Positions 5,074-37,625 of a stretch of DNA of 64,000 bases are shown piece after piece. Within the stretch, counting starts at the first letter, position 1. Each line of letters begins with the position of its first letter. The stretch spans positions 1,554 through 65,553 of the forward strand of contig CAKPFO010000004.1 in NCBI GenBank assembly GCA_934153805.1. The letters are read 5' to 3'. The notes beneath the pieces are model-generated. The model did not search any database. It had not been told where the DNA came from and saw only the letters and a program-made list of their open reading frames with translations. Origin of the DNA: an uncultured Clostridia bacterium. GTDB lineage: Bacteria; Bacillota; Clostridia; TANB77; CAG-508. The translations under genes and the position numbers were made by a program.

Positions 5074-5217
5074 TAGAAAAGTAAGCAGAATCTTATTATC
5101 ATTTTATAAAATAATAAGAAGATGCAATATTTTATGAAATGCTTATAGCAAAATCCACAATATAATTGAAAAATGTTAATAAATCTGCTATAATTCTAAT
5201 ATGAGATTAATAAAGGC

Positions 5218-6132
5218 ATGGAAGAGGATAAAACCAAATCTATGCCTTTAAGAAGGAATGTGATAAAAATGATAGTAACAAATAATTGGAAAGATTATGA
5301 AATATTAGATATGGCAGATGGAGAAAAATTAGAGCGCTGGAAAGATATTATTTTAGTAAGGCCAGACCCACAAATAATATGGAAAGATAAAAGTTTTCCT
5401 AAAAAGTGGAATGATATAAATGCTAAATATATAAGAAGCAATACTGGTGGAGGTAAATGGGAGTATAAAAAGAAAGTACCAAATGCATGGCAAGTAAACT
5501 ATAAAAATTTAACATTTAATATAAAGCCAATGGGATTTAAACATACAGGACTATTCCCAGAGCAAGCAGCTAATTGGGATTGGATGATGGATAAAATAAA
5601 AAATGTCAAGAGAGAAATAAAGGTATTAAATTTATTTGCATATACTGGTGGAGCAACAGTGGCTTGTTTAGCAGCAGGAGCTAGCGTTTGTCATGTAGAT
5701 AGTTCTAAAGGAATGGTAGCATGGGCAAAAGAAAATGTTATATCGTCAGGTTTACAAGATAGACCTGTTAGATACATTGTAGATGATGTCGTTAAATTCG
5801 TAAACAGAGAAATAAGAAGAGGCAATAAATATGATGCTATAATTATGGATCCACCTTCATACGGAAGAGGTGCAAATGGAGAAGTATGGAAATTTGAGGA
5901 TAATTTATGTGATTTAGTAGAGCTATGTTCAAAAGTATTATCAGACAATCCATTATTTTTCTTAATAAATTCTTATACAACAGGAATATCAAGTACAGTA
6001 CTAGAAAATATATTAAATTTAAATATAGAAAAAAAATATGGAGGAAAGGTAAGCAATGGCGAAATAGGTCTTCCAATGACAAACTCAAAACTAATATTAC
6101 CATGTGGAATTTATGGTAGATGGGAGAAATAA
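5218..6132 (+). CDS. class I SAM-dependent methyltransferase (RlmI/YwbD-like rRNA methyltransferase fold)
   Basis: SAM-binding motif LNLFAYTGGATVACLAAGA and catalytic-region motif DAIIMDPPSYGRG. An alternative start at 5269 (MIVTNNWKDYE) is possible. Confidence 0.75.
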   Translation: MEEDKTKSMPLRRNVIKMIVTNNWKDYEILDMADGEKLERWKDIILVRPDPQIIWKDKSFPKKWNDINAKYIRSNTGGGKWEYKKKVPNAWQVNYKNLTFNIKPMGFKHTGLFPEQAANWDWMMDKIKNVKREIKVLNLFAYTGGATVACLAAGASVCHVDSSKGMVAWAKENVISSGLQDRPVRYIVDDVVKFVNREIRRGNKYDAIIMDPPSYGRGANGEVWKFEDNLCDLVELCSKVLSDNPLFFLINSYTTGISSTVLENILNLNIEKKYGGKVSNGEIGLPMTNSKLILPCGIYGRWEK

Positions 6133-6133
6133 A

Positions 6134-6820
6134 ATGCAAAAATTAAATGTAATATATGAGGATAACCATATTATTGTTGTAGAAAAAATGGTAAATGTAC
6201 CTTCACAAGCAGATAAAACAGGTGACTTAGATATGCTTACAATTATAAAACAATATTTAAAAGAAAAGTACAATAAACCAGGAAATGTATATTTAGGGTT
6301 AGTACATAGACTAGATAGACCAGTTGGAGGAGTTATGGTTTTTGCTAAAACTTCAAAAGCAGCAGCAAGACTAAGTGAACAAGTAAGAGTAAAGGAGTTT
6401 AAAAAGAAATACTTAGTTGTAGTAAATGGAAAGATGGAAAACAAAAAAGGAGTTCTAGAAGATTATCTTTTAAAAAATGAAAAAGCTAACATGAGCAAAG
6501 TAGTTAGTAAGGAAACAAAAAATGCTAAATATGCAGCGTTAGATTATGAAGTACTAAAATATAATGAAGAAATTGATTTATCAGTATTAAAAATAAACTT
6601 ACATACAGGAAGGCATCATCAAATAAGAGTACAATTATCTAGTAGAAACCATAGCATATATGGAGACCAGAAATATGGTGGAAGAGGCCACGGAAAGCAA
6701 ATTGCTCTATGGGCATATGAACTTACAATTATTCATCCGGTAACAAAGGAAGAAATGACATTTAAAGTATTACCAGAAAAAATAGGTTCTTGGAAAATAC
6801 TTGAAGATGTAAATGTATAA
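6134..6820 (+). CDS. RluA-family pseudouridine synthase
   Basis: HRLDRPVGGVMVFAKTSKAA catalytic Asp motif and HQIRVQL motif. The ATG at 6134 overlaps the upstream stop region (GGAGAAATAAAATG). Confidence 0.85.
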   Translation: MQKLNVIYEDNHIIVVEKMVNVPSQADKTGDLDMLTIIKQYLKEKYNKPGNVYLGLVHRLDRPVGGVMVFAKTSKAAARLSEQVRVKEFKKKYLVVVNGKMENKKGVLEDYLLKNEKANMSKVVSKETKNAKYAALDYEVLKYNEEIDLSVLKINLHTGRHHQIRVQLSSRNHSIYGDQKYGGRGHGKQIALWAYELTIIHPVTKEEMTFKVLPEKIGSWKILEDVNV

Positions 6821-23169: not shown

Positions 23170-25789
23170 ATGTGGCATACTAAAAATGTAGATGAAATTG
23201 TAAAATACTATAAAACAGACAAACATAATGGAATAACAGAGGAAGAGGTTCGAAAAAGAATAAAAGAATATGGAGAAAATAAACTTGCAGACAAAAAGAA
23301 AGAAAGCTTATTTATAAAGTTTATAAAACAGTTTAATGACTTTATGATAATTATTCTAATAATAGCATCTATTATATCTGCAGTTGTTTCAAAATTAGAT
23401 GGAAGTGGGGACTATATAGACTCTGTAATAATAATCGCAATAGTAGTTTTAAATAGTATTATGGGACTAGTTCAAGAAGCAAAAGCAGAAAAATCGCTAG
23501 AAGCATTGAAAAGTATGACAGCACCTTTTGCAAAAGTTAGGAGAAATGGCAATATTGTAAGTGTAGAAGCAACCAATGTAGTTCCAGGAGATATAATAAT
23601 ATTGGAAGCGGGAAACTATGTACCAGCTGATGCAAGATTGATAAGTAGTTCGAATTTAAAAGTAGAAGAGTCAAGTTTAACAGGAGAAAATGTTCCTGTA
23701 ATAAAAGATGAAAATGCATATTTGAAAGAAAACATTCCTATAGGGGACATGGTAAATATGGTATTTTCTTCTACAATAGTGGTAAATGGACATGGAGAAG
23801 CAATAGTAACAGAAACAGGAATGAATACAAAAGTAGGAAAAATAGCAAATATGATAATAGAAGACGAAGCACCAGAAACACCAATACAAAAGAAATTGTC
23901 TGAAGTAGGAAAAATCCTTGGAATAGTGTGCTTAGTTATATGCTTACTCATTTTTGTAATAGGAATATTTAAGCAAATACCACCAGTAGAAATGTTTATG
24001 ACATCAGTAGGACTTGCTGTTGCTGCTATTCCAGAGGGACTACCAGCAATTGTAACTATAATGTTATCTATAGGCGTTACAAAAATGGCAAAGAAAAATA
24101 GCATAATAAGAAAGCTTCCAGCAGTTGAAACTTTGGGAGGAAGCAGTGTAATTTGTTCAGATAAAACTGGAACCTTAACACAAAACAAAATGCAAGTAAC
24201 TAAAATATTCGGACTAGGAGCAAGTGAAAAGCAAATATTAAGCTATGCCTCTATGTGTACAGACTCTGAAATAGAAACAAAAGAATCTAAACAAATAGTA
24301 GTAGGAGAGCCAACAGAAACAGCCATAGTAGAAGCTGCGTTAAAAAATGGGATTAATAAGTTTAGTGAATATAGAAACAAAAACAGAATAGCAGACATTC
24401 CATTTGATTCTAACAGAAAGATGATGACAACAATACATAAAGATAATGATAAATTTTTAAATATTACTAAAGGTGCACCAGATGTATTACTAAAGAGATG
24501 TACAAAATATTTTGATGGAACACAAGAGCTAGAGCTTACACGTACAGTAATTGATAAAGTATATAAACAAAATGAGGCTATGGCAAGCAAGGCTTTAAGA
24601 GTAATTGCCGTTGCATATAAAAATACAAATATGATAGAAAAAACAGAGGAAAATCTAGTCTTTTTAGGGTTAATAGGAATAATTGACCCTCCAAGAGAAG
24701 GTGTAAAAGAGGCAGTAGAAACATGTAGGAAGGCTGGAATAAAGACAGTAATGATTACTGGAGACCACCTTACCACCGCAAAGGCAATTGCAAAAGAATT
24801 AGGAATATTAAAAAGTAATGATTTGGCTATAACAGGTGAAGAGCTAGAAAGAATTCCACAAAACATATTTGAAAGAGATATAATGAAATATTCTGTGTTT
24901 GCAAGAGTATCACCAGAGGATAAAGTAAAAATAGTAAAGGCATTCCAAAGTACAGGAGCAGTAGTAGCAATGACAGGAGATGGAGTAAATGATAGTCCAG
25001 CTTTAAAAAATGCAGATATAGGAGTTGCTATGGGAAAAAACGGTACAGATGTTGCAAAAAATGCAGCAGATATGGTGCTTGCAGATGACAATTTTGTTAC
25101 TATAGTAGAAGCGGTAAAACAAGGAAGAAATATATATGATAATATTAAAAAATCTATACATTTCTTGATAGCTACTAATATAGGAGAAATAGTTACAATA
25201 TTTTTAGGACTAATATTAGGGTTAAAATCTCCATTACTTGCAATTCAATTACTATGGATAAACTTAGTAACAGACTCGCTTCCAGCAATAGCACTTGGCT
25301 TAGAACCACCAGATAAGGATATAATGAATAAAAAACCACGTAATCCTAAAAAAGGCATTTTCTCTGATGGTTTGTGGAGCAAAATTGTAGTAGAAGGAAT
25401 GATGATAGGGATGCTAACATTACTTGCATTTAGTATTGGAAATAAGCTTTATGGTATAGATGTAGCAAGAACAATGGCATTTGTGGCATTGGGAATGCTA
25501 GAACTCGTACACAGTTTTAATATAAAAAGTGAAGAATCAATATTTAAAACTCGGGTTATTTGAAAATAAGTATTTGATAGGTGCTTTTATATTAGGAACA
25601 ATAATGCAAACAATAGTAGTAATTATACCAAATGTTGCAGAAGTATTTAAATTAGTACCGCTAAATAATACACAATGGATATTTACAATTGGAATATCAA
25701 TGTTACCACTTATAATTATTGAAATTCAAAAGAAAATTAATGAAATAAGGTTTGGAAAAATTGTTTATGGAACAATTAAACCAGTGTAG
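23170..25789 (+). CDS. P-type Ca2+-transporting ATPase (YloB/SERCA-like), interrupted by a +1 frame change at in-frame CGG 25552-25554 (pseudogene as sequenced, or recoded)
   Basis: DKTGTLT, TGDHLTTA and MTGDGVNDSPAL motifs. ORF 25529..25789 encodes the missing last TM helices (...SIFKT|GLFENKYLIGAFILG). Confidence 0.85.
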
Positions 25790-27428: not shown

Positions 27429-27944
27429 ATGTCAGCAGCAAAAGAAAGAAAAAAGAGAAATGTAAGATTAATATGGATAATATTAATAATTATAGTAGCT
27501 GTAGGAGTAATAGTTACTATAAATTTATCAAATAATAAAAAGGATACTAAACCAGCACAACAACAATCACAAGTAGAAAATGGACAACAAGAGGAAGAAA
27601 AACCGGTAGAAAAATATGTACAAGTATTAGAAGATGGTACTAAATTGAATATTAGTGAAAAAATAAAACAAACTAAAAAAGTTGGAGACTTGGAAATATC
27701 AAATATTCAAATTACTTATCAAAATGGAGTAACAAATATACTTGCAACAGTAACAAATACTTCAAGTAAAAAATCAGAACTACAAAATGTATCAATAGTA
27801 TTATCAGATGATGAAGGAAACACAATATATACACTAAGAGGTGTATTAGAAGAAACAGAGCCAAATGGTACTAGTCAATTAAATACATCAATAACAGCAG
27901 ACTTTGCAAATAGTTATGACTTTACAATAAGCAAAACTAAATAA
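27429..27944 (+). CDS. hypothetical membrane-anchored protein
   Basis: Strong RBS AACGGAGGA, one N-terminal TM, a Q/E-rich linker and a beta-rich C-terminal domain. No named family. Confidence 0.5.
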   Translation: MSAAKERKKRNVRLIWIILIIIVAVGVIVTINLSNNKKDTKPAQQQSQVENGQQEEEKPVEKYVQVLEDGTKLNISEKIKQTKKVGDLEISNIQITYQNGVTNILATVTNTSSKKSELQNVSIVLSDDEGNTIYTLRGVLEETEPNGTSQLNTSITADFANSYDFTISKTK

Positions 27945-28043
27945 GAAATGGACTTAAATGGACGTTTCAAAAAGTCCAATAAGTAAGGGCTTTTTGAAGC
28001 GTCTTTTAATATATAAACATATGAAAAGAAAGGAACTATAAAA

Positions 28044-28736
28044 ATGAAAAAGAAAATTTTAGTAAATTTATTATTAGTAATAATGTTAGGAGTAATGCTT
28101 GTAAGTACTGTAAATGCAACTACAAACTCATTTAAAGCAGAACTTAGTACATCAAGTACAAGCTTAAAACCAGGAGATGAGGTAACTCTTACATTAAAAG
28201 TATCAGACATAAATATGGGAGATGACGGAATAAATGCAGTAGAAGGAACAATCAAATATGATACAAAAGTATTTGAGGCAATAACACAATCAAGTATTAC
28301 ATCAGAAAGTGGTTGGTCAACAACATATAATGGAGAAACAAGTAATAGCTTAAATGGAAAATTCTTAGCAGTAAACTTAAGTGCAGGAACAAAAGAAGAC
28401 ACAACAATACTAACAGTAAAATTTAAGGTAAAACAAGATGTAGTAAAAACAACAGAAACACAAATAAATTTTGTAGATGTAACATCAAATGATGGAGCAG
28501 ACCTAGTAAATGTAGGAACAAAAAGTGTTAAGTTAAAAGTAACTGTACCAGAAGAACCAAAGAACGAGATAAAAAATGAAGTGAAAAACTTAGAGGTAAA
28601 ACCATCAGAAAATAAAGCAACAGGAAGAATTCCACAAACAGGTGTAACACCAGCAATAGTAGTTACAATAAGTGTAATAGCAATTGTATGTGTATATATA
28701 GGAATTCGTTATAGAAATATGAAAGATGTAAAATAA
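28044..28736 (+). CDS. cell-wall-anchored cohesin-like domain protein (sortase substrate)
   Basis: Signal peptide, then a cohesin-like beta domain of about 150 aa (LKPGDEVTLTLKVSD...INAVEGTIKYDTKVFE...ILTVKFKVKQD), then the sorting signal IPQTG plus a hydrophobic segment and a basic tail. Confidence 0.6.
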   Translation: MKKKILVNLLLVIMLGVMLVSTVNATTNSFKAELSTSSTSLKPGDEVTLTLKVSDINMGDDGINAVEGTIKYDTKVFEAITQSSITSESGWSTTYNGETSNSLNGKFLAVNLSAGTKEDTTILTVKFKVKQDVVKTTETQINFVDVTSNDGADLVNVGTKSVKLKVTVPEEPKNEIKNEVKNLEVKPSENKATGRIPQTGVTPAIVVTISVIAIVCVYIGIRYRNMKDVK

Positions 28737-28751
28737 AAGGGGAAAAAAGTA

Positions 28752-31700
28752 ATGAAGAAAAAGTTATTAAGCATAGCATGTATAATAGCAATACTTTTAA
28801 CAAATACAGCAACACTAAGCATTGCTGCCATTGCATTTGATGAAATGTATAAGGTAAATGAAGATGAAAAATTGATTAGCAGAATAATGCCAGAGACAAC
28901 AGTAGAAATATTTAAATCGAAGACAAGTGAGCAATTAACAGTATATAAAGATGAAACTAAAACAGAAAAAGTAGATACTGGATTAATTGGAACAGGAATG
29001 GTTGTGGTAAAAGATGCGACAGGAGAAGAATACACAGTAAGTGTAATAGGTGACTTAAATGGAGACGGAAAAGCAACACAGGTAGAGTTAACAAATATAA
29101 TAAGACATATAGTAGGGCTAGAAAATGCAGAGCTAACAGGAATAAAATATGAGTCAGCAGATATTACAGGAGATAAAGCTGTTGACCAAAGAGATATAAG
29201 CAAGTTAGTAAAATATATAGTAACAGGCAAACTAGACATCGATAATGACAATAAAAATCAATCAACAATAGAGGCTACAACAAAAGAAACAAAAACAGAT
29301 AGTGTAAAAATAGAGGCAGTAGTAAAAGATTTGGTTACAGGCTCAATAAAACATACAACAACAACTGTCTATGTAAAAAAATCTGGAGAACCAGATACAA
29401 GTTACAGTAAAAAATACACAGGAACAGATAGTGAGTTAACAATAGATGGGCTTGATTCAAACACTGATTATGATATAAAAATAGAAGCAAAAGATGAACA
29501 AGGAAATGTAGTAACAAAAGTTATAAAAGTAAAAACTGCAAATATAGAGGGAAATATAACATTTGGAACTATAACATGGTCATCAGGCAAAGCAAGTACA
29601 ACAATAGCAACAGATTCAAGCTATGAAATAGAATATCAAATAAATAGTAAGACAGGAACATGGCTAAAAGCAGGCAGTACAGCAAATCAAATAACAGTAG
29701 ATAATTTGGCACATAATGATAAAATTTATGCACGTCTTACAAATGGAACTTCAACAACAGAACCAAAAGAATTAACAATAAAAGATGAAATAGAACCAAC
29801 AGTAAGCTTAAGTTTAACAAAAGGAACACAAAAGTTAACAGCAACAGCAACTGCAATCGATAATGAAAGCGGAATAGCAGCAGATGTAAAATATAAGTTT
29901 AGCATAAAAGAAAAAGATGCAAATGATAGTACATATGTAGAAAAACAAAATACAACATTAGCAACTTGTGAAATAACAGGATTAACAGAAGGAAAAGAAT
30001 ATACAGTAAAGGTAGAGGTTAGTGATATAGCTGGAAACATAGGAACAAAAGAAGAAACAATAATGATACCAGATGATATATCGCCAGTAGTAGGGTTAAC
30101 TTTAACACCTACAACAAGTACAATTATAGCAACAGCGACAGCTACAGATGTAGGAGGCTTGCCAACTAATACAATATATAAATTTAGTATAAAAAAGACA
30201 GCAGAAGATGATAGTACTTATGTAGTAAAACAAAACAATTCAGATGCAAATTGTACAATAACAGGACTAGAACAAAATACAAGTTATACAGTAAAAGTAG
30301 AGGTGGCTGATAAAGCTGGAAATGTAGGAATGAAGACAGAAACTATAACTACAACTGGAGTACCAGATAGTACAGTAGCAGGAGCAATAACATTTGGTAG
30401 TGCAACATGGAGTGCTGGAAAAGCAAGCGTAGTAATAAGTACAAATACAAGCTATACAATAGAGTATCAAGTAAATGGAACAACAGAAGGAAGCTGGACA
30501 AAAGCAAGTGCTGCAGGAGTAGACGTAACGGTAGATAATTTAAATAATAACGATATTGTTTATGCTAGACTAACAGACGGAACAAATGCTGGAAACTATG
30601 CAAGTGTAACAATAACAGATACAACAGAACCAACAGTTACATTAACATTATCAGGAGTAACAACAAGTTCAATAACAGCAACAGCAAATGCTACAGATAG
30701 TAAAAGTGGAATAGCAGCAGATGTAACATACAAATTTAGTATAAAGAAAACAGCAGAAGATGATAGTACTTATGTAGTAAAACAAAATACAACAGATAAA
30801 ACTTGTACAATAACAGGATTAGAGCAAAACACAAGTTATACAGTAAAAATTGAGGTAGAAGACATAGCTGGAAATGTAGGAGCAAAGACAGCAGCTACAA
30901 CTACTACATCAGTACCAGATAGTACAGTTTCAGGAGCAATAACATTTGGTAGTGCAACATGGAGTGCTGGAAAAGCAGAAATAACAGTAAGCACAAATAC
31001 AAGTCATACAATAGAATATCAAGTAAATGGAACAACAGAAGGAAGCTGGATAAAAGCAAGTGCAGCTGGAACAGACGTAACAGTAGATAATTTAAATAAT
31101 AACGATATTGTTTATGCACGTTTAACAGACGGAGCAAATGCAGGAAACTATGCAAGTGTAACAATAACAGATACAACAACACCAACAATTACATTAACAT
31201 TATCAAATGAAACAACAAATTCAATTACAGCAACAGCAAATGCTACAGATAGTGAAAGTGGAATAGCAGCAGATGTAACATACAAATTTAGTATAAAGAA
31301 AACAGCAGAAGATGATAGTACTTATGTAGTAAAACAAAATACAACATCTAAAACATGTACAATAACAGGACTAGAACAAAATACAAGCTACACAGTAAAA
31401 GTAGAGGTAGCTGATAAAGCTGGAAATGTAGGAACGAAGACAGAAACTACAACTACTACATCAGTACCAGATAGTACAGTGGCAGGAGCAATAACATTTG
31501 GTAGTGCGACATGGACATCAGGTAAGGCAGAAATAACAGTAAGCACAAATACAAGCTATACAATAGAATATCAAATAAATGGAACAACAGAAGGAAGCTG
31601 GATAAAAGCAAGTGCAGCAGGAGCAGACGTAACAGTAAGTAACTTAAATAATAACGATATAGTATATGCTAGATTAACAGACGGAACAAATGCAGGAAAT

Positions 31701-34700
31701 TATGCAAGTGTAACAATAACAGATACAACAACACCAACAATTACATTAACATTATCAAATGAAACAACAAATTCAATTACAGCAACAGCGGTAGCCATAG
31801 ATAGTGAAAGTGGAATAGCAGCAGATGTAACATACAAATTTAGTATAAAGAAAACATCAGAAGATGACAGTACTTATGTAGTAAAACAAAATACAACAGA
31901 TAAAACTTGTACAATAGCAGGACTAGAACAAAATACAAGCTACACAGTAAAAGTAGAGGTAGAAGACGTAGCAGGAAATGTAGGAGAAAAAACAGCAACT
32001 ACAACAACAACTGGAGTACCAGATAGCACAGTTTCAGGAGCAATAACATTTGGTAGTGCAACATGGAGTGCTGGAAAAGCAGAAGTAACAATAAGCACAA
32101 ATACAAGCTATACAATAGAATATCAAATAAATGGAACAACAGAAGAAAGCTGGATAAAAGCAAGTGCAGCTGGGACAGATGTAACAGTAGATAATTTAAA
32201 TAATAATGACATAGTATATGCTAGACTAACAGATGGAGCAAATGCAGGAAACTATGCAAGTGTAACAATAACAGATACAACAGAACCAACAGTAACGCTA
32301 ACATTATCAAATGAGACAACAAATTCAATTACAGCAACAGCAACAGCTACAGATAATGAAAGTGGAATAGCAACAGATGCAACATATAAATTTAGTATAA
32401 AGAAAACAGCAGAAGACGACAGTAGTTATGTAGTAAAACAAAATACAACAGATAAAACTTGCACGATAACAGGATTAGACCAAAATACAAGTTACACAGT
32501 AAAAGTAGAAGTGCAAGATATAGCAGGAAATACAGGAGCAAAAACAGAAACAACAACTACAACAACAGTACCAGATAGTACAGTGGCAGGAGCAATAACA
32601 TTTGGTAGTGCGACATGGACATCAGGTAAGGCAGAAATAACAATAAGCACAAATACAAGCTATACAATAGAATACCAAGTAAATGGAACAACAGAAGGAA
32701 GCTGGATAAAAGCAAGTGCAGCAGGAGCAGACGTAACAGTAGATAATTTAAATAATAACGATATTGTTTATGCACGTTTAACAGACGGAGCAAATGCAGG
32801 AAATTACGCAAGTGTAACAATAACAGATACAACAGAACCAACAATTACATTAACATTATCAAATGAAACAACAAATTCAATTACAGCAACAGCGGTAGCT
32901 ATAGATAGTGAAAGTGGAATAGCAGCAGATGCAACATATAAATTTAGTATAAAGAAAACAGCAGAAGATGATAGTACATATGTAGTAAAACAAAATACAA
33001 CAGATAAAACATGCACGATAACAGGATTAGAGCAAAATACAAGTTATACAGTAAAAATTGAAGTAGAAGATAAAGCTGGAAATACTGGAATGAAGACAGA
33101 AACTACAACTACTACATCAGTACCAGATAATACAGTAGCAGGAGCAATAACATTTGGTAGTGCAAGTTGGGCATCAGGAAAGGCAGAAATAACAGTAAGC
33201 ACAAATACAAGCTATACAATAGAATATCAAATAAATGGAACAACAGAAGGAAGCTGGACAAAAGCAAGTGCGGCTGGAACAGACGTAACAGTAGATAACT
33301 TAAATAATAATGATATCGTTTATGCTAGACTAACAGACGGAACAAATGCTGGAAATTACGCAAGTGTAACAATAACAGACACAACAAAACCAACAGTAAA
33401 CCTAACATTATCAGGAGTAACAACAAGTTCAATTATAGCAACAGCGGTAGCTACAGATAGTGAAAGTGGTATAGAAACAGATGCAACATATAAATTTAGT
33501 ATAAAAAAGACAGCAGAAGATGATAGCAGTTATGTAGTAAAACAAAACACAACAGATAAGACATGCACAATAACAGGATTAGAGCAAAACACAAATTACA
33601 CAGTAAAAGTTGAAGTAGAAGATATAGCTGGAAATGTGGGAGCAAAGACAGCAGCTACAACTACTACAGCAGTACCAGATAGCACAGTTTCAGGAGCAAT
33701 AACATTTGGAACAGCAATATGGTCAGCAGGTAAAGCAGAAATAACAGTAAGTACAAATACAAGTTACACAATAGAATACCAAGTAAATGGAACAACAGAA
33801 GGAAGCTGGATAAAAGCAAGTGCTGCAGGAGCAGACGTAACGGTAGATAATTTAAATAATAACGATATTGTTTATGCTAGACTAACAGACGGAACAAATG
33901 CAGGGAATTACGCAAATGTAACAATAACAGATACAACAGAACCAACAGTAACACTAACATTATCAAACGAAACAACAAATTCAATTACAGCAACAGCAAC
34001 AGCTACAGATGATGAAAGTGGAATAGCAGCAGATGCAACATATAAATTTAGTATAAAGAAAACAGCAGAAGATGATAGTACTTATGTAGTAAAACAAAAT
34101 ACAACAGATAAAACTTGTACAATAACAGGATTAGAGCAAAATACAGATTACACAGTAAAAGTTGAAGTAGAAGATAAAGCTGGAAATACTGGAATGAAGA
34201 CAGAAACTACAACGACTACAGCAGTACCAGATAGCACAGTTTCAGGAGCAATAACATTTGGAACAGCAACATGGTCAGCAGGAAAAGCAGAAGTAACAAT
34301 AAGCACAAATACAAGTTATACAATAGAATACCAAGTAAATAGTACATCAGGAACATGGACAAAGGTAAATGCAGGAGCTGTAGGAGGAACAAACGTAACA
34401 GTAAGTAACTTAAATAATAACGATATAGTATATGCTAGATTAACAGACGGAACAAATGCTGGAAACTATGCAAGTGTAACAATAACAGATACAACAGAAC
34501 CAACAATTACATTAACATTATCAGGAGTAACAACAAGTTCAATAACAGCAACAGCAGATGCAGCAGATAGTGAAAGTGGAATAAGTGCAACAGCAACATA
34601 TAAATTTAGCGTAAAGAAAACATCAGAGGCAGACAGTAGTTATGTAGTAAAACAAAATACAACATCTAAAGCATGTACAATAACAGGTTTACAACAAAAT

Positions 34701-36416
34701 ACAGATTACACAGTAAAAGTAGAGGTAGCAGATATCGCAGGAAATGCTGGAAGCAAAACTGCAGCAAAAACTACACAGACAGTTCCAAATGGAACACAAA
34801 CAGGAGCAATAACATTTGGCAGTGCAACATGGTCATCTGGAAAAGCAAGTATAGCAATAAGCACAGATACAAGCTATACAATAGAATATCAAGTAAATAG
34901 CACATCAGGCACATGGACAAAAGCAAGTTCGGCAGGAACAAGTGTAACAGTAAGTAATTTAAGCAATAACAGTGTAGTATATGCGAGATTAACAGATGGA
35001 ACAAATGCCGGAAATTACGCAAGTGTAACAATTGCAGATGCAACAAAACCAAAAGTTACATCAGCAACGGCAACATCAAGCAGTATTACATTTAGTGCGG
35101 TAGATAATGAAAGTGGAATAGTAGGATACAAAGTAACAACATCAAGTACAGCACCATCAAGTTTTGATAGTTGCACAAACACAACTACATTAACTAATAA
35201 GCAAGTAACAGGATTAAGTGCAAATACAACATATTATATATGGTTAAAAGATGCAGCAGGAAATGTAAGTACAGTATATAGTATAAAAACATCTGCTATC
35301 TTAGTAACATCTATTACATTGAATAAAACAGAGTTAACTTTGGAAGAAAGTAAAGAGGAAACATTAACTGCAACAATAAGTCCAACAAATGCAACAAATA
35401 AACAAGTAACATGGTCAACAAGTAAAAGTTCAGTTGCAACAGTAGATACAACAGGAAAAATAACAGCAGTAGCAGCAGGAACAGCAACAATAACAGCTAC
35501 AGCTAAAGATGGTAGTGGAAAATCTGCAAGTTGCACGGTAACGGTAGAAAGTGCTATAAAAGCAGAATATGTAAATTATCCAATAGACTTAAATGGAGAT
35601 GGAGATACAACAAATGACTGGATGCTATTTTATAAAGCAGATGGAAATGCAGAAGGAGAAGAAACTGGGGGAGCATATGCAGAAAATGTAGGAGATTACT
35701 ATATAATAGCAGCAGATTATTTAAAAAATACAGACAGTAGATTAAAATTAAGCCAAATGGGAACAGTACACGCAAACGGAGCATATTGTATATCGTGGTA
35801 TTATGAAAAGGATTTACCAACAACAGTACAAAAATCTGGAACAGAAACACTGATAGTGGGAGGAAGAACAAATACAAGTACAACAATAAATAAATTATTT
35901 ATGCAAAATAAATTTGGAGCATTAAATAGTGATAATCCTAATTCCAGAGCAGTATCAGCATTAATAAATACATCAAACTGGGCTGGATATGTAAATACAA
36001 GTTATGCAGATTATGCAATAGGAGCACCAACATTAGAGATGTGGGTAGCAAGTTGGAACGGAGCATATGAGGATAAATTAAAATTGTATACGAATAAAAA
36101 TTCATATGGTTACTATGTAGGAACAAATTCAAATAGTATAACCACGACATTTCAATCTATCTCATCAATAAGAGAAGGCTACAATAATAAATTATATTTT
36201 CCATATCAAGAATGTATTGATGGTACTAGCTGCTATGGAACATGGTTGGCATCTCCATCTGCTAAGGATGAAGAAACGAGATTAAGCGTGTATAGCTTAG
36301 GATTGATTTTTGCCGAGAGGATGTACTCGAGTGATTTGTGTACACGTCCTGTAGTCCATATAAAATCAGGAAAGTCATTAGAGAAAAATGCTTCAGGAAT
36401 ATGGGAGATAAAATAG
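28752..36416 (+). CDS. giant (2554 aa) secreted repeat protein: N-terminal dockerin-like module, about 10 tandem Fn3/Ig-like double modules, Big_2 domain, C-terminal domain of unknown function
   Basis: Signal peptide, then the dockerin EF-hand pair GDLNGDGKATQVELTNIIRHIVG / ADITGDKAVDQRDISKLVKYIV. The 184-aa units repeat (ITFGSATWS...YTIEYQVNGTTEGSW...SGIAADVTYKFSIKK...YTVKVEV.D.AGN). Big_2 domain (ITLNKTELTL...ATITATAKDGSGKSASCTVTV). The C-terminal domain ends in WLASP...TRPVV. Confidence 0.85.
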   Translation: MKKKLLSIACIIAILLTNTATLSIAAIAFDEMYKVNEDEKLISRIMPETTVEIFKSKTSEQLTVYKDETKTEKVDTGLIGTGMVVVKDATGEEYTVSVIGDLNGDGKATQVELTNIIRHIVGLENAELTGIKYESADITGDKAVDQRDISKLVKYIVTGKLDIDNDNKNQSTIEATTKETKTDSVKIEAVVKDLVTGSIKHTTTTVYVKKSGEPDTSYSKKYTGTDSELTIDGLDSNTDYDIKIEAKDEQGNVVTKVIKVKTANIEGNITFGTITWSSGKASTTIATDSSYEIEYQINSKTGTWLKAGSTANQITVDNLAHNDKIYARLTNGTSTTEPKELTIKDEIEPTVSLSLTKGTQKLTATATAIDNESGIAADVKYKFSIKEKDANDSTYVEKQNTTLATCEITGLTEGKEYTVKVEVSDIAGNIGTKEETIMIPDDISPVVGLTLTPTTSTIIATATATDVGGLPTNTIYKFSIKKTAEDDSTYVVKQNNSDANCTITGLEQNTSYTVKVEVADKAGNVGMKTETITTTGVPDSTVAGAITFGSATWSAGKASVVISTNTSYTIEYQVNGTTEGSWTKASAAGVDVTVDNLNNNDIVYARLTDGTNAGNYASVTITDTTEPTVTLTLSGVTTSSITATANATDSKSGIAADVTYKFSIKKTAEDDSTYVVKQNTTDKTCTITGLEQNTSYTVKIEVEDIAGNVGAKTAATTTTSVPDSTVSGAITFGSATWSAGKAEITVSTNTSHTIEYQVNGTTEGSWIKASAAGTDVTVDNLNNNDIVYARLTDGANAGNYASVTITDTTTPTITLTLSNETTNSITATANATDSESGIAADVTYKFSIKKTAEDDSTYVVKQNTTSKTCTITGLEQNTSYTVKVEVADKAGNVGTKTETTTTTSVPDSTVAGAITFGSATWTSGKAEITVSTNTSYTIEYQINGTTEGSWIKASAAGADVTVSNLNNNDIVYARLTDGTNAGNYASVTITDTTTPTITLTLSNETTNSITATAVAIDSESGIAADVTYKFSIKKTSEDDSTYVVKQNTTDKTCTIAGLEQNTSYTVKVEVEDVAGNVGEKTATTTTTGVPDSTVSGAITFGSATWSAGKAEVTISTNTSYTIEYQINGTTEESWIKASAAGTDVTVDNLNNNDIVYARLTDGANAGNYASVTITDTTEPTVTLTLSNETTNSITATATATDNESGIATDATYKFSIKKTAEDDSSYVVKQNTTDKTCTITGLDQNTSYTVKVEVQDIAGNTGAKTETTTTTTVPDSTVAGAITFGSATWTSGKAEITISTNTSYTIEYQVNGTTEGSWIKASAAGADVTVDNLNNNDIVYARLTDGANAGNYASVTITDTTEPTITLTLSNETTNSITATAVAIDSESGIAADATYKFSIKKTAEDDSTYVVKQNTTDKTCTITGLEQNTSYTVKIEVEDKAGNTGMKTETTTTTSVPDNTVAGAITFGSASWASGKAEITVSTNTSYTIEYQINGTTEGSWTKASAAGTDVTVDNLNNNDIVYARLTDGTNAGNYASVTITDTTKPTVNLTLSGVTTSSIIATAVATDSESGIETDATYKFSIKKTAEDDSSYVVKQNTTDKTCTITGLEQNTNYTVKVEVEDIAGNVGAKTAATTTTAVPDSTVSGAITFGTAIWSAGKAEITVSTNTSYTIEYQVNGTTEGSWIKASAAGADVTVDNLNNNDIVYARLTDGTNAGNYANVTITDTTEPTVTLTLSNETTNSITATATATDDESGIAADATYKFSIKKTAEDDSTYVVKQNTTDKTCTITGLEQNTDYTVKVEVEDKAGNTGMKTETTTTTAVPDSTVSGAITFGTATWSAGKAEVTISTNTSYTIEYQVNSTSGTWTKVNAGAVGGTNVTVSNLNNNDIVYARLTDGTNAGNYASVTITDTTEPTITLTLSGVTTSSITATADAADSESGISATATYKFSVKKTSEADSSYVVKQNTTSKACTITGLQQNTDYTVKVEVADIAGNAGSKTAAKTTQTVPNGTQTGAITFGSATWSSGKASIAISTDTSYTIEYQVNSTSGTWTKASSAGTSVTVSNLSNNSVVYARLTDGTNAGNYASVTIADATKPKVTSATATSSSITFSAVDNESGIVGYKVTTSSTAPSSFDSCTNTTTLTNKQVTGLSANTTYYIWLKDAAGNVSTVYSIKTSAILVTSITLNKTELTLEESKEETLTATISPTNATNKQVTWSTSKSSVATVDTTGKITAVAAGTATITATAKDGSGKSASCTVTVESAIKAEYVNYPIDLNGDGDTTNDWMLFYKADGNAEGEETGGAYAENVGDYYIIAADYLKNTDSRLKLSQMGTVHANGAYCISWYYEKDLPTTVQKSGTETLIVGGRTNTSTTINKLFMQNKFGALNSDNPNSRAVSALINTSNWAGYVNTSYADYAIGAPTLEMWVASWNGAYEDKLKLYTNKNSYGYYVGTNSNSITTTFQSISSIREGYNNKLYFPYQECIDGTSCYGTWLASPSAKDEETRLSVYSLGLIFAERMYSSDLCTRPVVHIKSGKSLEKNASGIWEIK
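29540..35050 (+). repeat. in-frame tandem DNA repeats, 552-bp period, inside the giant gene
   Basis: GCAATAACATTTGG recurs at 30384, 30936, 31488, 32040, 32592, 33144, 33696 and 34248, an exact 552-nt spacing, and then at 34806. Units are near-identical at DNA level by eye. More diverged units flank them. Confidence 0.9.
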
Positions 36417-36497
36417 AGAATATTACTAGTAATTAAAACAACAATGAAATACATGCAATGAATGTCAAAGAAACAGAATGAAATTGAAAATACAATC

Positions 36498-36531
36498 AAA
36501 AACACAGTCTAGATTTTAGACTGTGTTTTTG
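36498..36531 (+). terminator. intrinsic terminator after the giant gene
   Basis: Hairpin ACACAGTCT / AGACTGTGT followed by a T run. Confidence 0.75.
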
Positions 36532-36730
36532 TAAAAATTACTGTTGATATTATAAAATAGAAGGATAAAAGTATAATCTTTAATTCATATATGTCATATT
36601 ATGTCGGAAAGTTTTTGTTGCAATTGTATCTGAAATGTGTTAACATAAATGTAAATTATATTTCAAATGATTTTTATTCAAAATAAAAAATCAAGGCAGT
36701 TCTGCCAAAATTTTCAAACAAAAAAATAAA

Positions 36731-36767: not shown

Positions 36768-37625
36768 ATTATAGGAAATTTATTAAATCCAAAAATAGAC
36801 TATGTATTTAAAAGAATATTTGGATACATAGGAAATGAAGAGATAACAGCAGCACTTTTAAGTTCTATATTAAAAAAGCAAATTAGCAATGTAAAATTAG
36901 ATAGTAATCCAATATTAGAAAAAGATATACTAGATGACAAAGTAGGAATTCTAGACATAAGAGCTAAAATAGATAACAATATTAATTGTAATATAGAAAT
37001 GCAAGTAGTAGATAAAAAGAATATCGAAAAGAGAATATTGTACTATTGGAGTAAGATGTATGCTAAAAGTATAAAAGCAGGTGATGATTACGAAAAATTA
37101 GAAAAAGGAATAGCAATACTAATATCAGATTACGAACTATCAGGCTTAAAGAAAATAGAGAAATATATAACGAAGTGGAACATAAGAGAAGAGGAATATC
37201 AAAAAATAATATTGACAGATGTGATGGAAATATATATAATCGAACTACCAAAGTTCGAGAGATATAAAGAAAAGACAGATAAAGTTTTGAACTCATGGGT
37301 GAAATTTATAGAAAATCCAGAGGTGGTCGATATGAAGGAAAATGAAAAAGTAGGAAAAGCTAAAAAAGTACTAGAAGAAATAAGCCAAGATGAGCATGAA
37401 AGATATTTAGCAGAGCTAAGAGAAAAATACATAATGGACAAAAAGGCAATAGAGGACGCTGGTTTTGATAAAGGCTTAGAAGCTGGAATTAAACAAGGAC
37501 TTGAACAAGGCAAAAAGCAACAAGCAATTGATATAGCTAAAAATTTAAAAGAACAAAATGTAGATATTGATATCATATGTAAAACCACAGGTTTAACAAA
37601 AGAAGAAATAGAAAATTTAAAATAG
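36768..37625 (+). CDS. Rpn-family recombination-promoting nuclease / putative transposase (PD-(D/E)XK); no canonical start codon for the conserved N-terminus
   Basis: The frame is open from 36687 and encodes the family N-terminus LLNPKIDYVFKRIFG...DKVGILDIRAKIDNNINCNIEMQV, upstream of the first ATG at 36999. Only ATT 36768 or ATA 36771 are available, after AGAAGG. Confidence 0.65.
   Translation: MIGNLLNPKIDYVFKRIFGYIGNEEITAALLSSILKKQISNVKLDSNPILEKDILDDKVGILDIRAKIDNNINCNIEMQVVDKKNIEKRILYYWSKMYAKSIKAGDDYEKLEKGIAILISDYELSGLKKIEKYITKWNIREEEYQKIILTDVMEIYIIELPKFERYKEKTDKVLNSWVKFIENPEVVDMKENEKVGKAKKVLEEISQDEHERYLAELREKYIMDKKAIEDAGFDKGLEAGIKQGLEQGKKQQAIDIAKNLKEQNVDIDIICKTTGLTKEEIENLK

What the first reader, a model, noticed from the sequence alone, without database searches (positions are those of the whole stretch)
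28044..29250. Cohesin-dockerin style surface display pair outside any obvious cellulosome context
Gene 28044..28736 encodes a signal peptide, a cohesin-like beta-sandwich domain and a sortase sorting signal (IPQTG, a hydrophobic stretch and a basic tail). The next gene starts 16 nt later. Right after its signal peptide (about 29040-29250) it encodes a duplicated EF-hand dockerin-type module: GDLNGDGKATQVELTNIIRHIVG ... ADITGDKAVDQRDISKLVKYIV.

The simplest reading is a two-component system. The wall-anchored cohesin would hold the 2554-aa repeat protein non-covalently on the cell surface. No glycoside hydrolase domain is visible, so this would be an adhesin or fibre display system rather than a cellulosome.
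Basis: partly seen in the sequence, partly recalled or inferred. Interest (0 to 1): 0.65.

Follow-up and report, generated by a model that had tools for sequence, protein, structure and literature searches.

The report
Cohesin-anchored giant surface fibre operon
Two neighbouring genes in an uncultured gut Clostridia bacterium encode a small wall-anchored "socket" (cohesin) and a 2554-residue fibre whose front end carries the matching "plug" (dockerin); this looks like a cellulosome-type connector reused to hold a long adhesin on the cell, and the pairing recurs in related gut bacteria.

Summary
ORF 28044..28736 encodes a signal peptide, a Pfam cohesin (42.8 bits, cut-off 24.1, full-length match), then IPQTG + TM + basic tail. 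ORF 28752..36416 starts 15 nt later and carries a Dockerin_1 module (24.2-29.9 bits, cut-off 22.9) at residues 99-160. One correction: a conserved ~70-aa beta-module lies between the signal peptide and the dockerin.

The strongest support is comparative. In 10 distinct loci (41-54% cohesin identity, different flanking genes) the small cohesin gene sits next to a giant protein with the same N-terminus. Cohesin (63%) and dockerin (72%) are the best-conserved modules of the pair.

The rest of the large protein is about 23 beta-sandwich domains, including 10 x 184-aa units. It ends in a confidently modelled (pLDDT 91.5) DUF6273-related head. Homologues of that head are carried by type-IV-pilin-like proteins. 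No CAZyme, scaffoldin or sortase lies in the 64 kb.

Best reading: non-covalent cohesin-dockerin anchoring of a fibrillar adhesin, analogous to ScaE-CttA of Ruminococcus flavefaciens. Here the dockerin is N-terminal and there is no cellulosome context. Verdict: new variant of a known kind, of moderate interest.

The parts
27429..27944 (+). Small single-pass membrane protein (171 aa). Probably a third, conserved member of the locus; function unknown.
   Evidence: 46-55% identical homologues in L008, L011, L012, L013 and L016, with a similar ORF in L020. All share the C-terminal motif TADF(A/S)N(A/S)YD(F/I)KI. No Pfam or NCBIfam hit above cut-off.
27960..28008 (+). Terminator-like hairpin (17-18 bp stem) plus U-run between the small TM gene and the cohesin gene.
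   Evidence: RNA fold dG -26.8 kcal/mol, z = -6.3, none of 200 shuffles as stable.
28044..28736 (+). Anchor protein, 230 aa: signal peptide (res 1-25, ...VNA|T), cohesin domain (res 37-168 = 28152..28547), 26-aa linker, IPQTG (28629..28643), TM (28644..28706), basic tail RYRNMKDVK.
   Evidence: Pfam Cohesin 42.8 bits against 24.1. Translation. Family alignment shows a conserved [IL]P[KQNR][TA]G + TM + R/K tail. 62 homologue clusters; 1029 representative clusters at E<=1e-3.
28737..28751 (+). 15-nt intergenic spacer with the Shine-Dalgarno-like sequence AAGGGG; the two genes are in the same frame.
   Evidence: Sequence.
28752..28835 (+). Signal peptide of the large protein (res 1-28, ...AIA|F).
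   Evidence: Read from the sequence; the cleavage site is inferred by eye.
28836..29045 (+). Conserved ~70-aa beta-rich module preceding the dockerin ('X-module-like'; motif YxVdxxxxIISRIEPETT...IYKdK...GTGM...YxxSV).
   Evidence: Conserved in all 11 aligned partners (A5). No Pfam or PDB match.
29046..29231 (+). Dockerin module (res 99-160): two F-hand segments, DLNGDGKATQVE + helix and DITGDKAVDQRD + helix.
   Evidence: Dockerin_1 24.2-29.9 bits against 22.9. 11 of 11 relatives hit Dockerin_1. PDB dockerins at E~1e-7 with the family profile. Most conserved module of the pair, 72% mean identity.
29274..35303 (+). Stalk of about 22 FN3/Ig-like beta-sandwich domains, including ten 184-aa two-domain units. 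Seven of the units are 87-92% identical at DNA level.
   Evidence: fn3 and FN3_DSCAM hits, 9-10 stretches. Unit dissection. DNA identity matrix. TRF found nothing because the 552-nt period exceeds its limit.
35304..35540 (+). Big_2 bacterial Ig-like domain.
   Evidence: PF02368, 73.7 bits.
35547..36413 (+). Distal 289-aa globular head, remotely related to DUF6273; candidate ligand-binding tip.
   Evidence: 83 homologues. 12 of 39 aligned members hit PF19789 and 5 of 39 hit N_methyl. AF2 pLDDT 91.5, pTM 0.91. No significant PDB or BFVD match: best are 9qa6 at E=8e-3 and phage DUF6273 proteins at E>=1.5e-2.
36497..36536 (+). Intrinsic-terminator-like hairpin (15-bp stem) plus T-run, about 80 nt after the stop of the large gene.

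Best explanation
A two-gene surface-display unit.

ORF1 is secreted, its C-terminal IPQTG signal is processed by a sortase encoded elsewhere, and it becomes a peptidoglycan-linked single cohesin. ORF2 is secreted and loses its signal peptide. Its N-terminal beta-module + dockerin then binds that cohesin non-covalently in a Ca-dependent way. As a result, a stalk of about 23 beta-sandwich domains projects from the cell. Assuming ~3.5-4 nm per domain, the stalk would be roughly 80-90 nm long. It presents a Big_2 domain and a DUF6273-related head as the adhesive tip.

Shown here: the domain identities, the sorting-signal anatomy, the conserved adjacency, the preferential conservation of the two modules, and the lack of any other anchor or any enzyme domain.

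Inferred: the cohesin-dockerin binding itself, its Ca dependence, sortase processing, the stalk length and the adhesive role of the tip.
For: - Cohesin and Dockerin_1 HMMs are above their curated cut-offs.
- ORF1 has a tripartite sortase signal, conserved as [IL]P[KQNR][TA]G + TM + basic tail across 20 homologues.
- The genes are 15 nt apart and bracketed by terminator-like hairpins at 27960-28008 and 36497-36536.
- The same cohesin / beta-module + dockerin gene pair occurs in 10 distinct loci with unrelated flanks. Several are uncultured gut Clostridia MAGs.
- Mean pairwise identity is 72% for the dockerin and 63% for the cohesin, against 50% for the beta-module, 39% for the linker/anchor and 37% for the first FN3. 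Cohesin and dockerin divergences correlate at r=0.86.
- More distant cohesins of the family also sit beside other dockerin proteins (L016a; L017).
- ORF2 has no LPXTG and no C-terminal hydrophobic tail, and Pfam reports no SLH or cell-wall-binding repeats for it.
- Distal domains vary between loci while the anchor and stalk stay constant.
- Homologues of the head are also carried by pilin-like proteins.
- In the literature, DUF6273 domains are C-type-lectin-like receptor-binding modules in phage proteins (PMC10743442).
- In L020 the equivalent tip protein is followed by bAvd, a DGR accessory gene.
Against: - No binding evidence of any kind.
- The dockerin score is only modestly above the cut-off. 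The family profile also hits calmodulin-type EF-hands at E~1e-5, against ~1e-7 for dockerins.
- The cohesin is distant from every solved cohesin (best 3UL4, E=0.023), and its fold was not modelled.
- There is no sortase gene in the window.
- The r=0.86 correlation is confounded by shared phylogeny, and several loci are close relatives.
- L018/L019 carry three family cohesins with no dockerin gene called within ~10 kb, so adjacency is not obligatory.
- The window's head domain does not itself reach any Pfam family. Its structural matches are not significant.
Confidence: 0.7

Rival explanations
1. Both modules are genuine, but the pairing is not one-to-one. The anchored cohesin serves as a general docking site for several dockerin proteins encoded elsewhere in the genome, or ORF2's dockerin binds a different cohesin. 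The adjacency would then reflect co-regulation rather than exclusive partnership.
For: L017 has one family cohesin followed by three different Dockerin_1 proteins. The MAG CAKPDN carries at least three cohesin genes and two kinds of dockerin protein. L018/L019 have cohesins without adjacent dockerins. Only 64 kb of the source genome is visible.
Against: In the window's own sub-family the relation is one cohesin gene next to one beta-module + dockerin gene in 10 loci. The dockerin of this sub-family is very uniform (GDxxGDGKATQVELTN...DQRDITK), and it differs from the L016a dockerin found in the same MAG. That suggests pair-specific recognition. No other dockerin lies in the window.
Confidence: 0.17
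2. The 'dockerin' is just a structural Ca-binding EF-hand pair that does not bind the cohesin. ORF2 would be held by an uncleaved N-terminal signal-anchor or released into the medium. ORF1 would be an independent small surface protein whose cohesin-fold domain binds something else.
For: The Dockerin_1 score is close to the cut-off in the full protein (24.2 against 22.9). The profile also matches calmodulins and E. histolytica CaBP at similar E-values. From my own knowledge, many dockerin-like modules outside cellulosomes have no known partner. The AF2 model failed.
Against: All 11 family members hit Dockerin_1 better than any EF-hand family. The loop is entered from a beta-strand rather than a helix (F-hand, not a full EF-hand), and the protein is secreted. 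The module is the most conserved part of a fast-evolving surface protein, and it is always encoded beside a cohesin. The AIA|F site looks like a good signal-peptidase site (inference).
Confidence: 0.1
3. Chance adjacency of unrelated genes, or an assembly artefact in a highly repetitive gene.
For: The stalk contains seven 552-nt units that are 87-92% identical. Four metagenome contigs carrying the identical cohesin all break inside the large gene, so the repeat copy number in the window could be assembly-dependent.
Against: The 5' end of ORF2 (signal peptide, beta-module, dockerin) is identical in four independent assemblies. The gene pair recurs in 10 loci from different studies. Any artefact would affect repeat number, not the pair itself.
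Confidence: 0.03

Closest known systems
ScaE-CttA anchoring in Ruminococcus flavefaciens: a sortase-anchored monovalent cohesin, ScaE, binds the X-module + dockerin of the cellulose-binding protein CttA. Background from PMC11557425 and PMC2930009; the details are from my own knowledge.
   Same: A single cohesin is covalently wall-linked through a sortase signal. The partner is a non-enzymatic adhesin held by a dockerin that is preceded by an extra module. Binding is one cohesin to one dockerin, rather than a multi-enzyme scaffold.
   Different: - The dockerin dyad here is at the N-terminus, so load would pass through the dockerin's C-terminus; in CttA it is C-terminal.
- The preceding module has no detectable similarity to known X-modules.
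- Pfam type I dockerin and cohesin models match here, rather than divergent type III sequences.
- No cellulosome genes or CAZymes are nearby.
- The partner is a 2554-aa FN3 fibre with a DUF6273-like tip.
- The two genes are adjacent.
Ruminococcus bromii amylosome, and the 'scaffoldin-containing, presumably non-cellulolytic' bacteria (PMC4611034; PMC11557425).
   Same: Cohesin-dockerin pairs are used outside cellulose degradation. Some single-cohesin proteins are cell-associated.
   Different: Those systems still organise enzymes (GH13 amylases and others) on scaffoldins. Here no enzyme domain is detected and the cargo is a fibre.
Covalently anchored Gram-positive fibrillar adhesins (LPXTG proteins with long Ig/FN3 repeat stalks and an N-terminal binding head); from my own knowledge.
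   Same: A long rod of near-identical beta-sandwich repeats projects a binding domain away from the wall. Sortase provides the ultimate link to peptidoglycan.
   Different: Polarity is inverted: the anchor end is N-terminal and the head is C-terminal. The fibre itself has no sorting signal. A separate 230-aa adaptor carries the sorting signal, and the link is non-covalent.
DUF6273 domains: phage 'tentaclin' receptor-binding proteins (PMC10743442) and the N-terminal domain of the Thomasclavelia ramosa IgA peptidase (PMC12402451).
   Same: Twelve of 39 homologues of the window's head hit PF19789. The best, though weak, fold matches are the IgA peptidase 9qa6 and phage DUF6273 proteins. The domain sits at the distal end of Ig/FN3 arrays.
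   Different: The window's own sequence hits no Pfam family. Fold matches are not significant (E>=2e-3, TM<=0.36). No DGR is present in the window.

Membership tests
Cohesin (Pfam PF00963) | Sequence matches the family HMM above the gathering score over most of the model. | tested here: met
   42.8 bits against 24.1, E=7.6e-11, model positions 6-139 of 139. Most homologues are also pre-annotated PF00963.
Cohesin (Pfam PF00963) | Nine-stranded jelly-roll beta-sandwich fold. | not tested
The family profile reaches solved cohesins only weakly: 3UL4 E=0.023, 5G5D 0.22, 1AOH 0.46.
Cohesin (Pfam PF00963) | Binds a dockerin. | not testable with these tools
The only evidence is indirect, from synteny and conservation.
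Dockerin type I (Pfam PF00404) | Sequence matches the family HMM above the gathering score. | tested here: met
   24.2, 27.7 and 29.9 bits against 22.9. 11 of 11 relatives match, best E=1e-9.
Dockerin type I (Pfam PF00404) | Two tandem ~22-residue segments, each a 12-residue Ca-binding loop (acidic or amide at positions 1, 3, 5, 12) followed by a helix. | tested here: met
   DLNGDGKATQVE + LTNIIRHIVG and DITGDKAVDQRD + ISKLVKYIVT. Conserved in alignment A5.
Dockerin type I (Pfam PF00404) | Dockerin fold, distinguishable from generic EF-hand proteins. | tested here: inconclusive
   The AF2 model reached only pLDDT 47. In the PDB profile search, dockerins score ~1e-7 but calmodulins reach ~1e-5.
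Sortase-anchored surface protein (LPXTG-type cell-wall sorting signal) | C-terminal pentapeptide motif + hydrophobic segment + positively charged tail. | tested here: met
   IPQTG-VTPAIVVTISVIAIVCVYIGI-RYRNMKDVK. The variant motif [IL]P[KQNR][TA]G is conserved across the family.
Sortase-anchored surface protein (LPXTG-type cell-wall sorting signal) | A cognate sortase is present. | tested here: not met
   No TLxTC-containing ORF in a plausible gene in the 64-kb window. A sortase gene lies ~7 kb upstream in the related locus L008. The rest of the genome is not visible.
Cellulosome / amylosome | Dockerin-bearing glycoside hydrolases or other CAZymes. | tested here: not met
   No GH or CBM family in ORF2. 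None in the 27 neighbouring proteins scanned with Pfam. Only one dockerin in the window.
Cellulosome / amylosome | A scaffoldin with multiple cohesins. | tested here: not met
   ORF1 has a single cohesin. No further cohesin copy was found in the window by tblastn with the ORF1 protein.
ScaE-CttA-type X-module + dockerin adhesin anchoring | A monovalent sortase-anchored cohesin plus an adhesin carrying an X-module + dockerin dyad. | tested here: inconclusive
   The monovalent anchored cohesin is met. A conserved module does precede the dockerin. Its fold and its contact with the dockerin could not be modelled, and the dyad is N-terminal rather than C-terminal.
DUF6273 (Pfam PF19789), for the distal head | Sequence matches the family HMM. 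| tested here: inconclusive
   The window's domain hits no family. 12 of 39 homologues hit PF19789, best E=4.2e-6. Fold matches to DUF6273 proteins are weak.

The most novel reading that the evidence does not exclude
A widespread, undescribed surface organelle of uncultured low-GC gut Clostridia: a conserved module of a sortase-anchored mono-cohesin, a giant fibre with an N-terminal dockerin, and a small membrane protein. Cohesin-dockerin plugging would replace covalent sorting as the way to mount ~90-nm fibres. The distal heads are exchangeable: they are fused to the fibre in this window, carried on a separate pilin-leader protein in relatives, and apparently diversified by a DGR in at least one relative. 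Functionally it would be an alternative to pili for host or particle attachment, with a load geometry (pull from the dockerin's C-terminus) unlike any characterised cohesin-dockerin complex.
Probability: 0.4. Interest if true: 0.7.

Novelty: new variant of a known kind. Interest (0 to 1): 0.55.

Why it matters
Cohesin-dockerin pairs are best known as the glue of cellulosomes. Non-cellulosomal pairs have been catalogued, but few have a defined job.

Here both partners are encoded side by side, one to one, in a conserved module across many uncultured human, mouse and livestock gut Clostridia. That gives a clean, directly testable case of the connector being used to mount a giant adhesin. It also offers:
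- a new, divergent and probably orthogonal cohesin-dockerin pair for protein engineering;
- a natural example with inverted pulling geometry for single-molecule mechanics;
- a handle on how unculturable gut Firmicutes attach to their substrates or host, through a DUF6273-type head also found on pilin-like proteins, phage receptor-binding proteins and an IgA peptidase.

Tried and rejected
1. Modelling the complex. The in-frame read-through translation 28044-29250 was rejected because of the stop codon.
2. AF2 of the beta-module + dockerin with a 4-sequence alignment gave pLDDT 47 and is unusable. Only 3 homologues were retrievable by the word-indexed search.
3. The first reference-genome scan, with the single protein, found nothing. 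The alignment-based rescan found 6 loci.
4. TRF reported no repeats because the 552-nt period exceeds its 500-nt limit. The repeats were dissected by script instead.
5. Frameshift hypothesis. The apparent split of the large gene in related loci is not a frameshift or pseudogene. The second ORF is a separate gene with its own prepilin-like leader.
6. Shared-head hypothesis. I had assumed the relatives' second protein carries the same head as the window. A profile of the window's head family hits no other locus, so the distal domains differ.
7. Fold searches of the head against PDB and BFVD gave no significant match.
8. The promoter scan is uninformative in 29% GC DNA: 38 hits against 46.8 expected.
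9. The Rfam scan of the window found nothing.
10. Public names for family members: none on record.
11. DGR in the window: no template/variable-type repeat of the head-coding region.
12. The Ca2+-ATPase 2.5 kb upstream was considered as functionally linked. It was rejected because it is absent from the related loci.
Full report
**1. Observation**

They are separated by 15 nt containing AAGGGG.

ORF1 reads: signal peptide (…STVNA|TT), a ~130-aa domain, a 26-aa charged linker, IPQTG, a 21-residue hydrophobic stretch, then RYRNMKDVK.

ORF2 carries the quoted GDLNGDGKATQVELTNIIRHIVG … ADITGDKAVDQRDISKLVKYIV at residues 100-157.

A six-frame motif scan of the whole 64-kb window (29% GC) found no second dockerin loop, no second sorting signal and no sortase TLxTC motif in a plausible gene.

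**2. Domain tests**

- Pfam gives Cohesin (PF00963) for ORF1 at 42.8 bits against a gathering score of 24.1, covering model positions 6-139 of 139.
- Dockerin_1 (PF00404) is found in ORF2 at 24.2 bits in the whole protein, 27.7 in the N-terminal 345 aa and 29.9 in the isolated module, against a cut-off of 22.9.
- Both modules are divergent from solved structures. A 20-sequence profile of the cohesin family reaches solved cohesins only at E=0.023-0.46 (3UL4, 5G5D, 1AOH).
- An 11-sequence profile of the dockerin region hits dockerins at ~1e-7, but calmodulin-type EF-hands at ~1e-5.
- 'Ca-binding EF-hand pair' is therefore firm. 'Dockerin' specifically rests on three things: Pfam (11 of 11 relatives match, and no EF-hand family scores better), the F-hand layout (the loop is entered from a β-strand), and the context.
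- An AF2 model of this region failed (pLDDT 47, four-sequence alignment), so the fold test is inconclusive.

A ~70-aa module (res ~29-98; YxVdxxxxIISRIEPETT…IYKDK…GTGM…YxxSV) precedes it. It is conserved in every relative and matches nothing in Pfam or the PDB. Its position recalls the X-module of X-module + dockerin dyads, but that is an analogy, not a tested homology.

**3. The rest of the large protein**

After the dockerin come about 22 FN3/Ig-like β-sandwich domains. These include ten 184-aa two-domain units. Seven of the units are 87-92% identical at the DNA level, with exact in-register runs of up to 98 nt.

Next comes a Big_2 domain (73.7 bits), then a 289-aa C-terminal domain with no Pfam or PDB sequence match.

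That last domain has 83 homologue clusters. Of 39 aligned members, 12 hit DUF6273 (PF19789) and 5 hit the prepilin N_methyl motif. Stand-alone members such as P0088 and P0106 begin with KGITLIALVITI…, a class III leader.

AF2 models the domain confidently (pLDDT 91.5, pTM 0.91). Foldseek finds nothing significant:
- The best PDB hit is the Thomasclavelia ramosa IgA peptidase 9qa6 (E=8e-3, TM 0.36). Its N-terminal domain is annotated DUF6273 (PMC12402451).
- The best viral hits include several phage DUF6273 proteins (E≥1.5e-2).

In phage 'tentaclins', DUF6273 domains are modelled as C-type-lectin-like receptor-binding modules and are DGR targets (PMC10743442). I therefore read the head as a probable ligand-binding tip, with modest confidence.

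No enzyme family was detected anywhere in ORF2.

**4. Context**

The window is ordinary chromosome of a spore-forming Clostridia member. It encodes YqfD, YbeY, SMC, a Ca-type P-type ATPase, an M23 peptidase, rubrerythrin, dUTPase, PFOR subunits, a CCA/poly(A) polymerase-type enzyme and Mfd. No CAZyme, scaffoldin, sortase or pilus machinery was found among the proteins scanned.

A strong hairpin plus U-run (ΔG −26.8 kcal/mol, z −6.3) separates the upstream 171-aa membrane-protein gene from the cohesin gene. A 15-bp hairpin plus T-run follows the large gene. The pair therefore looks like its own transcription unit, though I could not identify a promoter.

**5. Comparative evidence (the main support)**

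The identical cohesin protein is present on six metagenome contigs with the same neighbours. The four that were shown all break inside the repeat gene.

The family has 62 clusters at 90% identity in one database. In a library of 1.84 billion representatives it has 1029 clusters at E≤1e-3 and 329 at E≤1e-10. Most members are 200-300 aa and align end to end, signal peptide and anchor included. The sorting signal is conserved as [IL]P[KQNR][TA]G + TM + basic tail.

Counting the window, ten distinct loci at 41-54% cohesin identity to it were examined: the window, P0045, P0048, P0044, and the uncultured Clostridia MAG loci L011-L015 and L016b, from Hadza human gut, mouse gut and other metagenomes. 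In each, the cohesin gene is adjacent to a >1100-aa protein with the same plan: signal peptide, β-module, dockerin, FN3. The flanking genes differ from locus to locus.

Across nine pairs the dockerin (72% mean pairwise identity) and the cohesin domain (63%) are the most conserved modules. The β-module is at 50%, the linker/anchor at 39% and the first FN3 at 37%. Cohesin and dockerin divergences correlate at r=0.86, which is suggestive but confounded by phylogeny.

More distant family cohesins also sit next to other dockerin proteins:
- L016a: a BspA/LRR-like protein with a canonical C-terminal dockerin.
- L017: three Dockerin_1 proteins in a row.

One counter-example: L018/L019 have three small cohesin genes around uvrA and no dockerin gene called within ~10 kb.

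**6. Mechanism proposed**

ORF1 is exported and wall-linked by a sortase encoded elsewhere. ORF2 is exported and its signal peptide is cut (AIA|F, inferred). Its N-terminal dockerin plugs into the cohesin. The stalk of about 23 β-sandwich domains would be roughly 80-90 nm long, assuming ~3.5-4 nm per domain (from my own knowledge). It projects the Big_2 domain and the DUF6273-like head.

ORF2 has no other recognisable anchor, so the dockerin is the only candidate for retention.

The anchor end and stalk are constant between loci, but the distal domains differ:
- DUF6273-like 'YWLASP…RPVV' heads in the window, L014 and L016b;
- Cys-rich repeats in L015;
- a GLUG-like start in the L013 second protein.

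That is the pattern expected of an adhesin with a variable tip.

Compared with ScaE-CttA, the load path is different: the cohesin would be pulled from its C-terminus and the dockerin from its C-terminus. The ScaE-CttA geometry is recalled from my own knowledge, not tested here.

**7. Rivals**

- One-to-many or non-adjacent pairing (0.17).
- An EF-hand pair with no cohesin binding (0.10).
- Artefact or chance (0.03).

Details are in the Rival explanations section. The repeat copy number, but not the pair, could be assembly-dependent.

**8. Comparison with what is known, and novelty**

Sortase-anchored cohesins occur in Ruminococcus cellulosomes. Cohesin-dockerin use outside cellulose degradation is also established: the R. 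bromii amylosome and the 'scaffoldin-containing, presumably non-cellulolytic' genomes (PMC11557425, PMC4611034, PMC2930009). The principle is therefore known.

What I did not find described in the papers searched is this particular conserved module: a 230-aa mono-cohesin anchor plus an adjacent giant FN3 fibre with an N-terminal β-module + dockerin, in low-GC gut Clostridia and without any enzymes. The literature search was limited, so absence is not proven.

I file it as a new variant of a known kind. It meets the sequence definitions of cohesin, dockerin and sortase substrate. It fails the defining features of a cellulosome or amylosome (no CAZymes, no multi-cohesin scaffoldin).

**9. Verdict**

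Confidence in the display model is 0.7. Interest is 0.55.

Noticed in passing
window 27429-27944 (+); homologues at L008:16437-16928, L011:16195-16695, L012:16088-16588, L013:7177-7665, L016:17129-17602, L020:7125-7625: A 155-171-aa single-pass membrane protein with a conserved C-terminal motif (TADFANSYDFxISK) accompanies the cohesin/dockerin pair in seven loci. It lies upstream of the cohesin in the window and L020, and downstream of the large gene elsewhere. It has no family assignment and may be a third component of the system (assembly, or a membrane-side partner).
   Followed up: partly
L006:~5133-6179, L008:~14678-16360, L011:14169-16034, L013:5315-6751, L020:12426-14357: In relatives, the gene after the dockerin-stalk gene overlaps its 3' end in another frame. 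It encodes a protein with a short basic leader + AITL[IV]ALVITI..LLILAGV (prepilin-like N-terminus), a helix, FN3 domains and a distal head. In the window the head is instead fused to the stalk, so this is a fission/fusion relationship. Stand-alone homologues of the window's head also have prepilin leaders (P0088, P0106). How a pilin-leader protein would relate to the cohesin-held stalk is unexplained.
   Followed up: partly
L020:12426-15168: The pilin-leader tip protein ends in an N/Y/G/S-rich 'RYWLGSANGAAGVW…NYGYGSSNYY' segment and is followed directly by a bAvd gene (PF22296), the accessory gene of diversity-generating retroelements. The contig ends before any RT. This suggests the tip domain is DGR-diversified in that relative. 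No template/variable-type repeat exists in the window.
   Followed up: partly
L016:4025-7650 (CAKPDN010000002.1): The same MAG that carries two pairs of the window's type (L012, L016b) also has a different pair: a 956-aa BspA/LRR-like protein with a canonical C-terminal double-segment dockerin (DINGDGQVNSTD … DINSDEKINATD), followed directly by a divergent 247-aa cohesin with LPYTG. This hints at several orthogonal cohesin-dockerin display pairs in one genome.
   Followed up: partly
L018:1270-6276 and L019:1006-6012: Three small cohesin genes (222, 278 and 186 aa) flank uvrA, with no dockerin gene called within ~10 kb. This is an exception to the adjacency rule.
   Followed up: no
window 36999-37625 (+): A truncated Rpn/PD-(D/E)XK_2 'transposase' (it starts at model position 71-73) lies ~580 nt downstream of the large gene. 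In most relatives that position is occupied by the pilin-leader and small TM genes. A rearrangement here might explain why the small TM gene is upstream in the window, but L020 shares the upstream position.
   Followed up: no
window 30387-35303 (repeat units); L001-L004 contig ends: Seven 552-nt units are 87-92% identical, with in-register exact runs of up to 98 nt. Four independent short-read assemblies carrying the identical cohesin all terminate inside this gene, so the copy number in the window should be treated as provisional.
   Followed up: partly
window 23170-25563 (+): A PMR1/SERCA-like Ca2+ P-type ATPase lies 2.5 kb upstream of the Ca-dependent dockerin system. It is not conserved next to the pair in L005 or L008, so the proximity is probably coincidental.
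   Followed up: partly
window 47803-48480 (+): An isolated 225-aa protein with a phage tail collar domain (PF07484, 67.7 bits) sits immediately upstream of mfd, with no other phage genes seen nearby.
   Followed up: no
window 35547-36413; alignment A2: The head domain family has a strikingly conserved core motif A-I-G-x-P-T-L-E-M-W-V-A-S-(W/Y)-N, and invariant D24, W25, E164, R267 and P268. This could mark a ligand or catalytic site. No HExxH or other obvious catalytic signature was seen.
   Followed up: no
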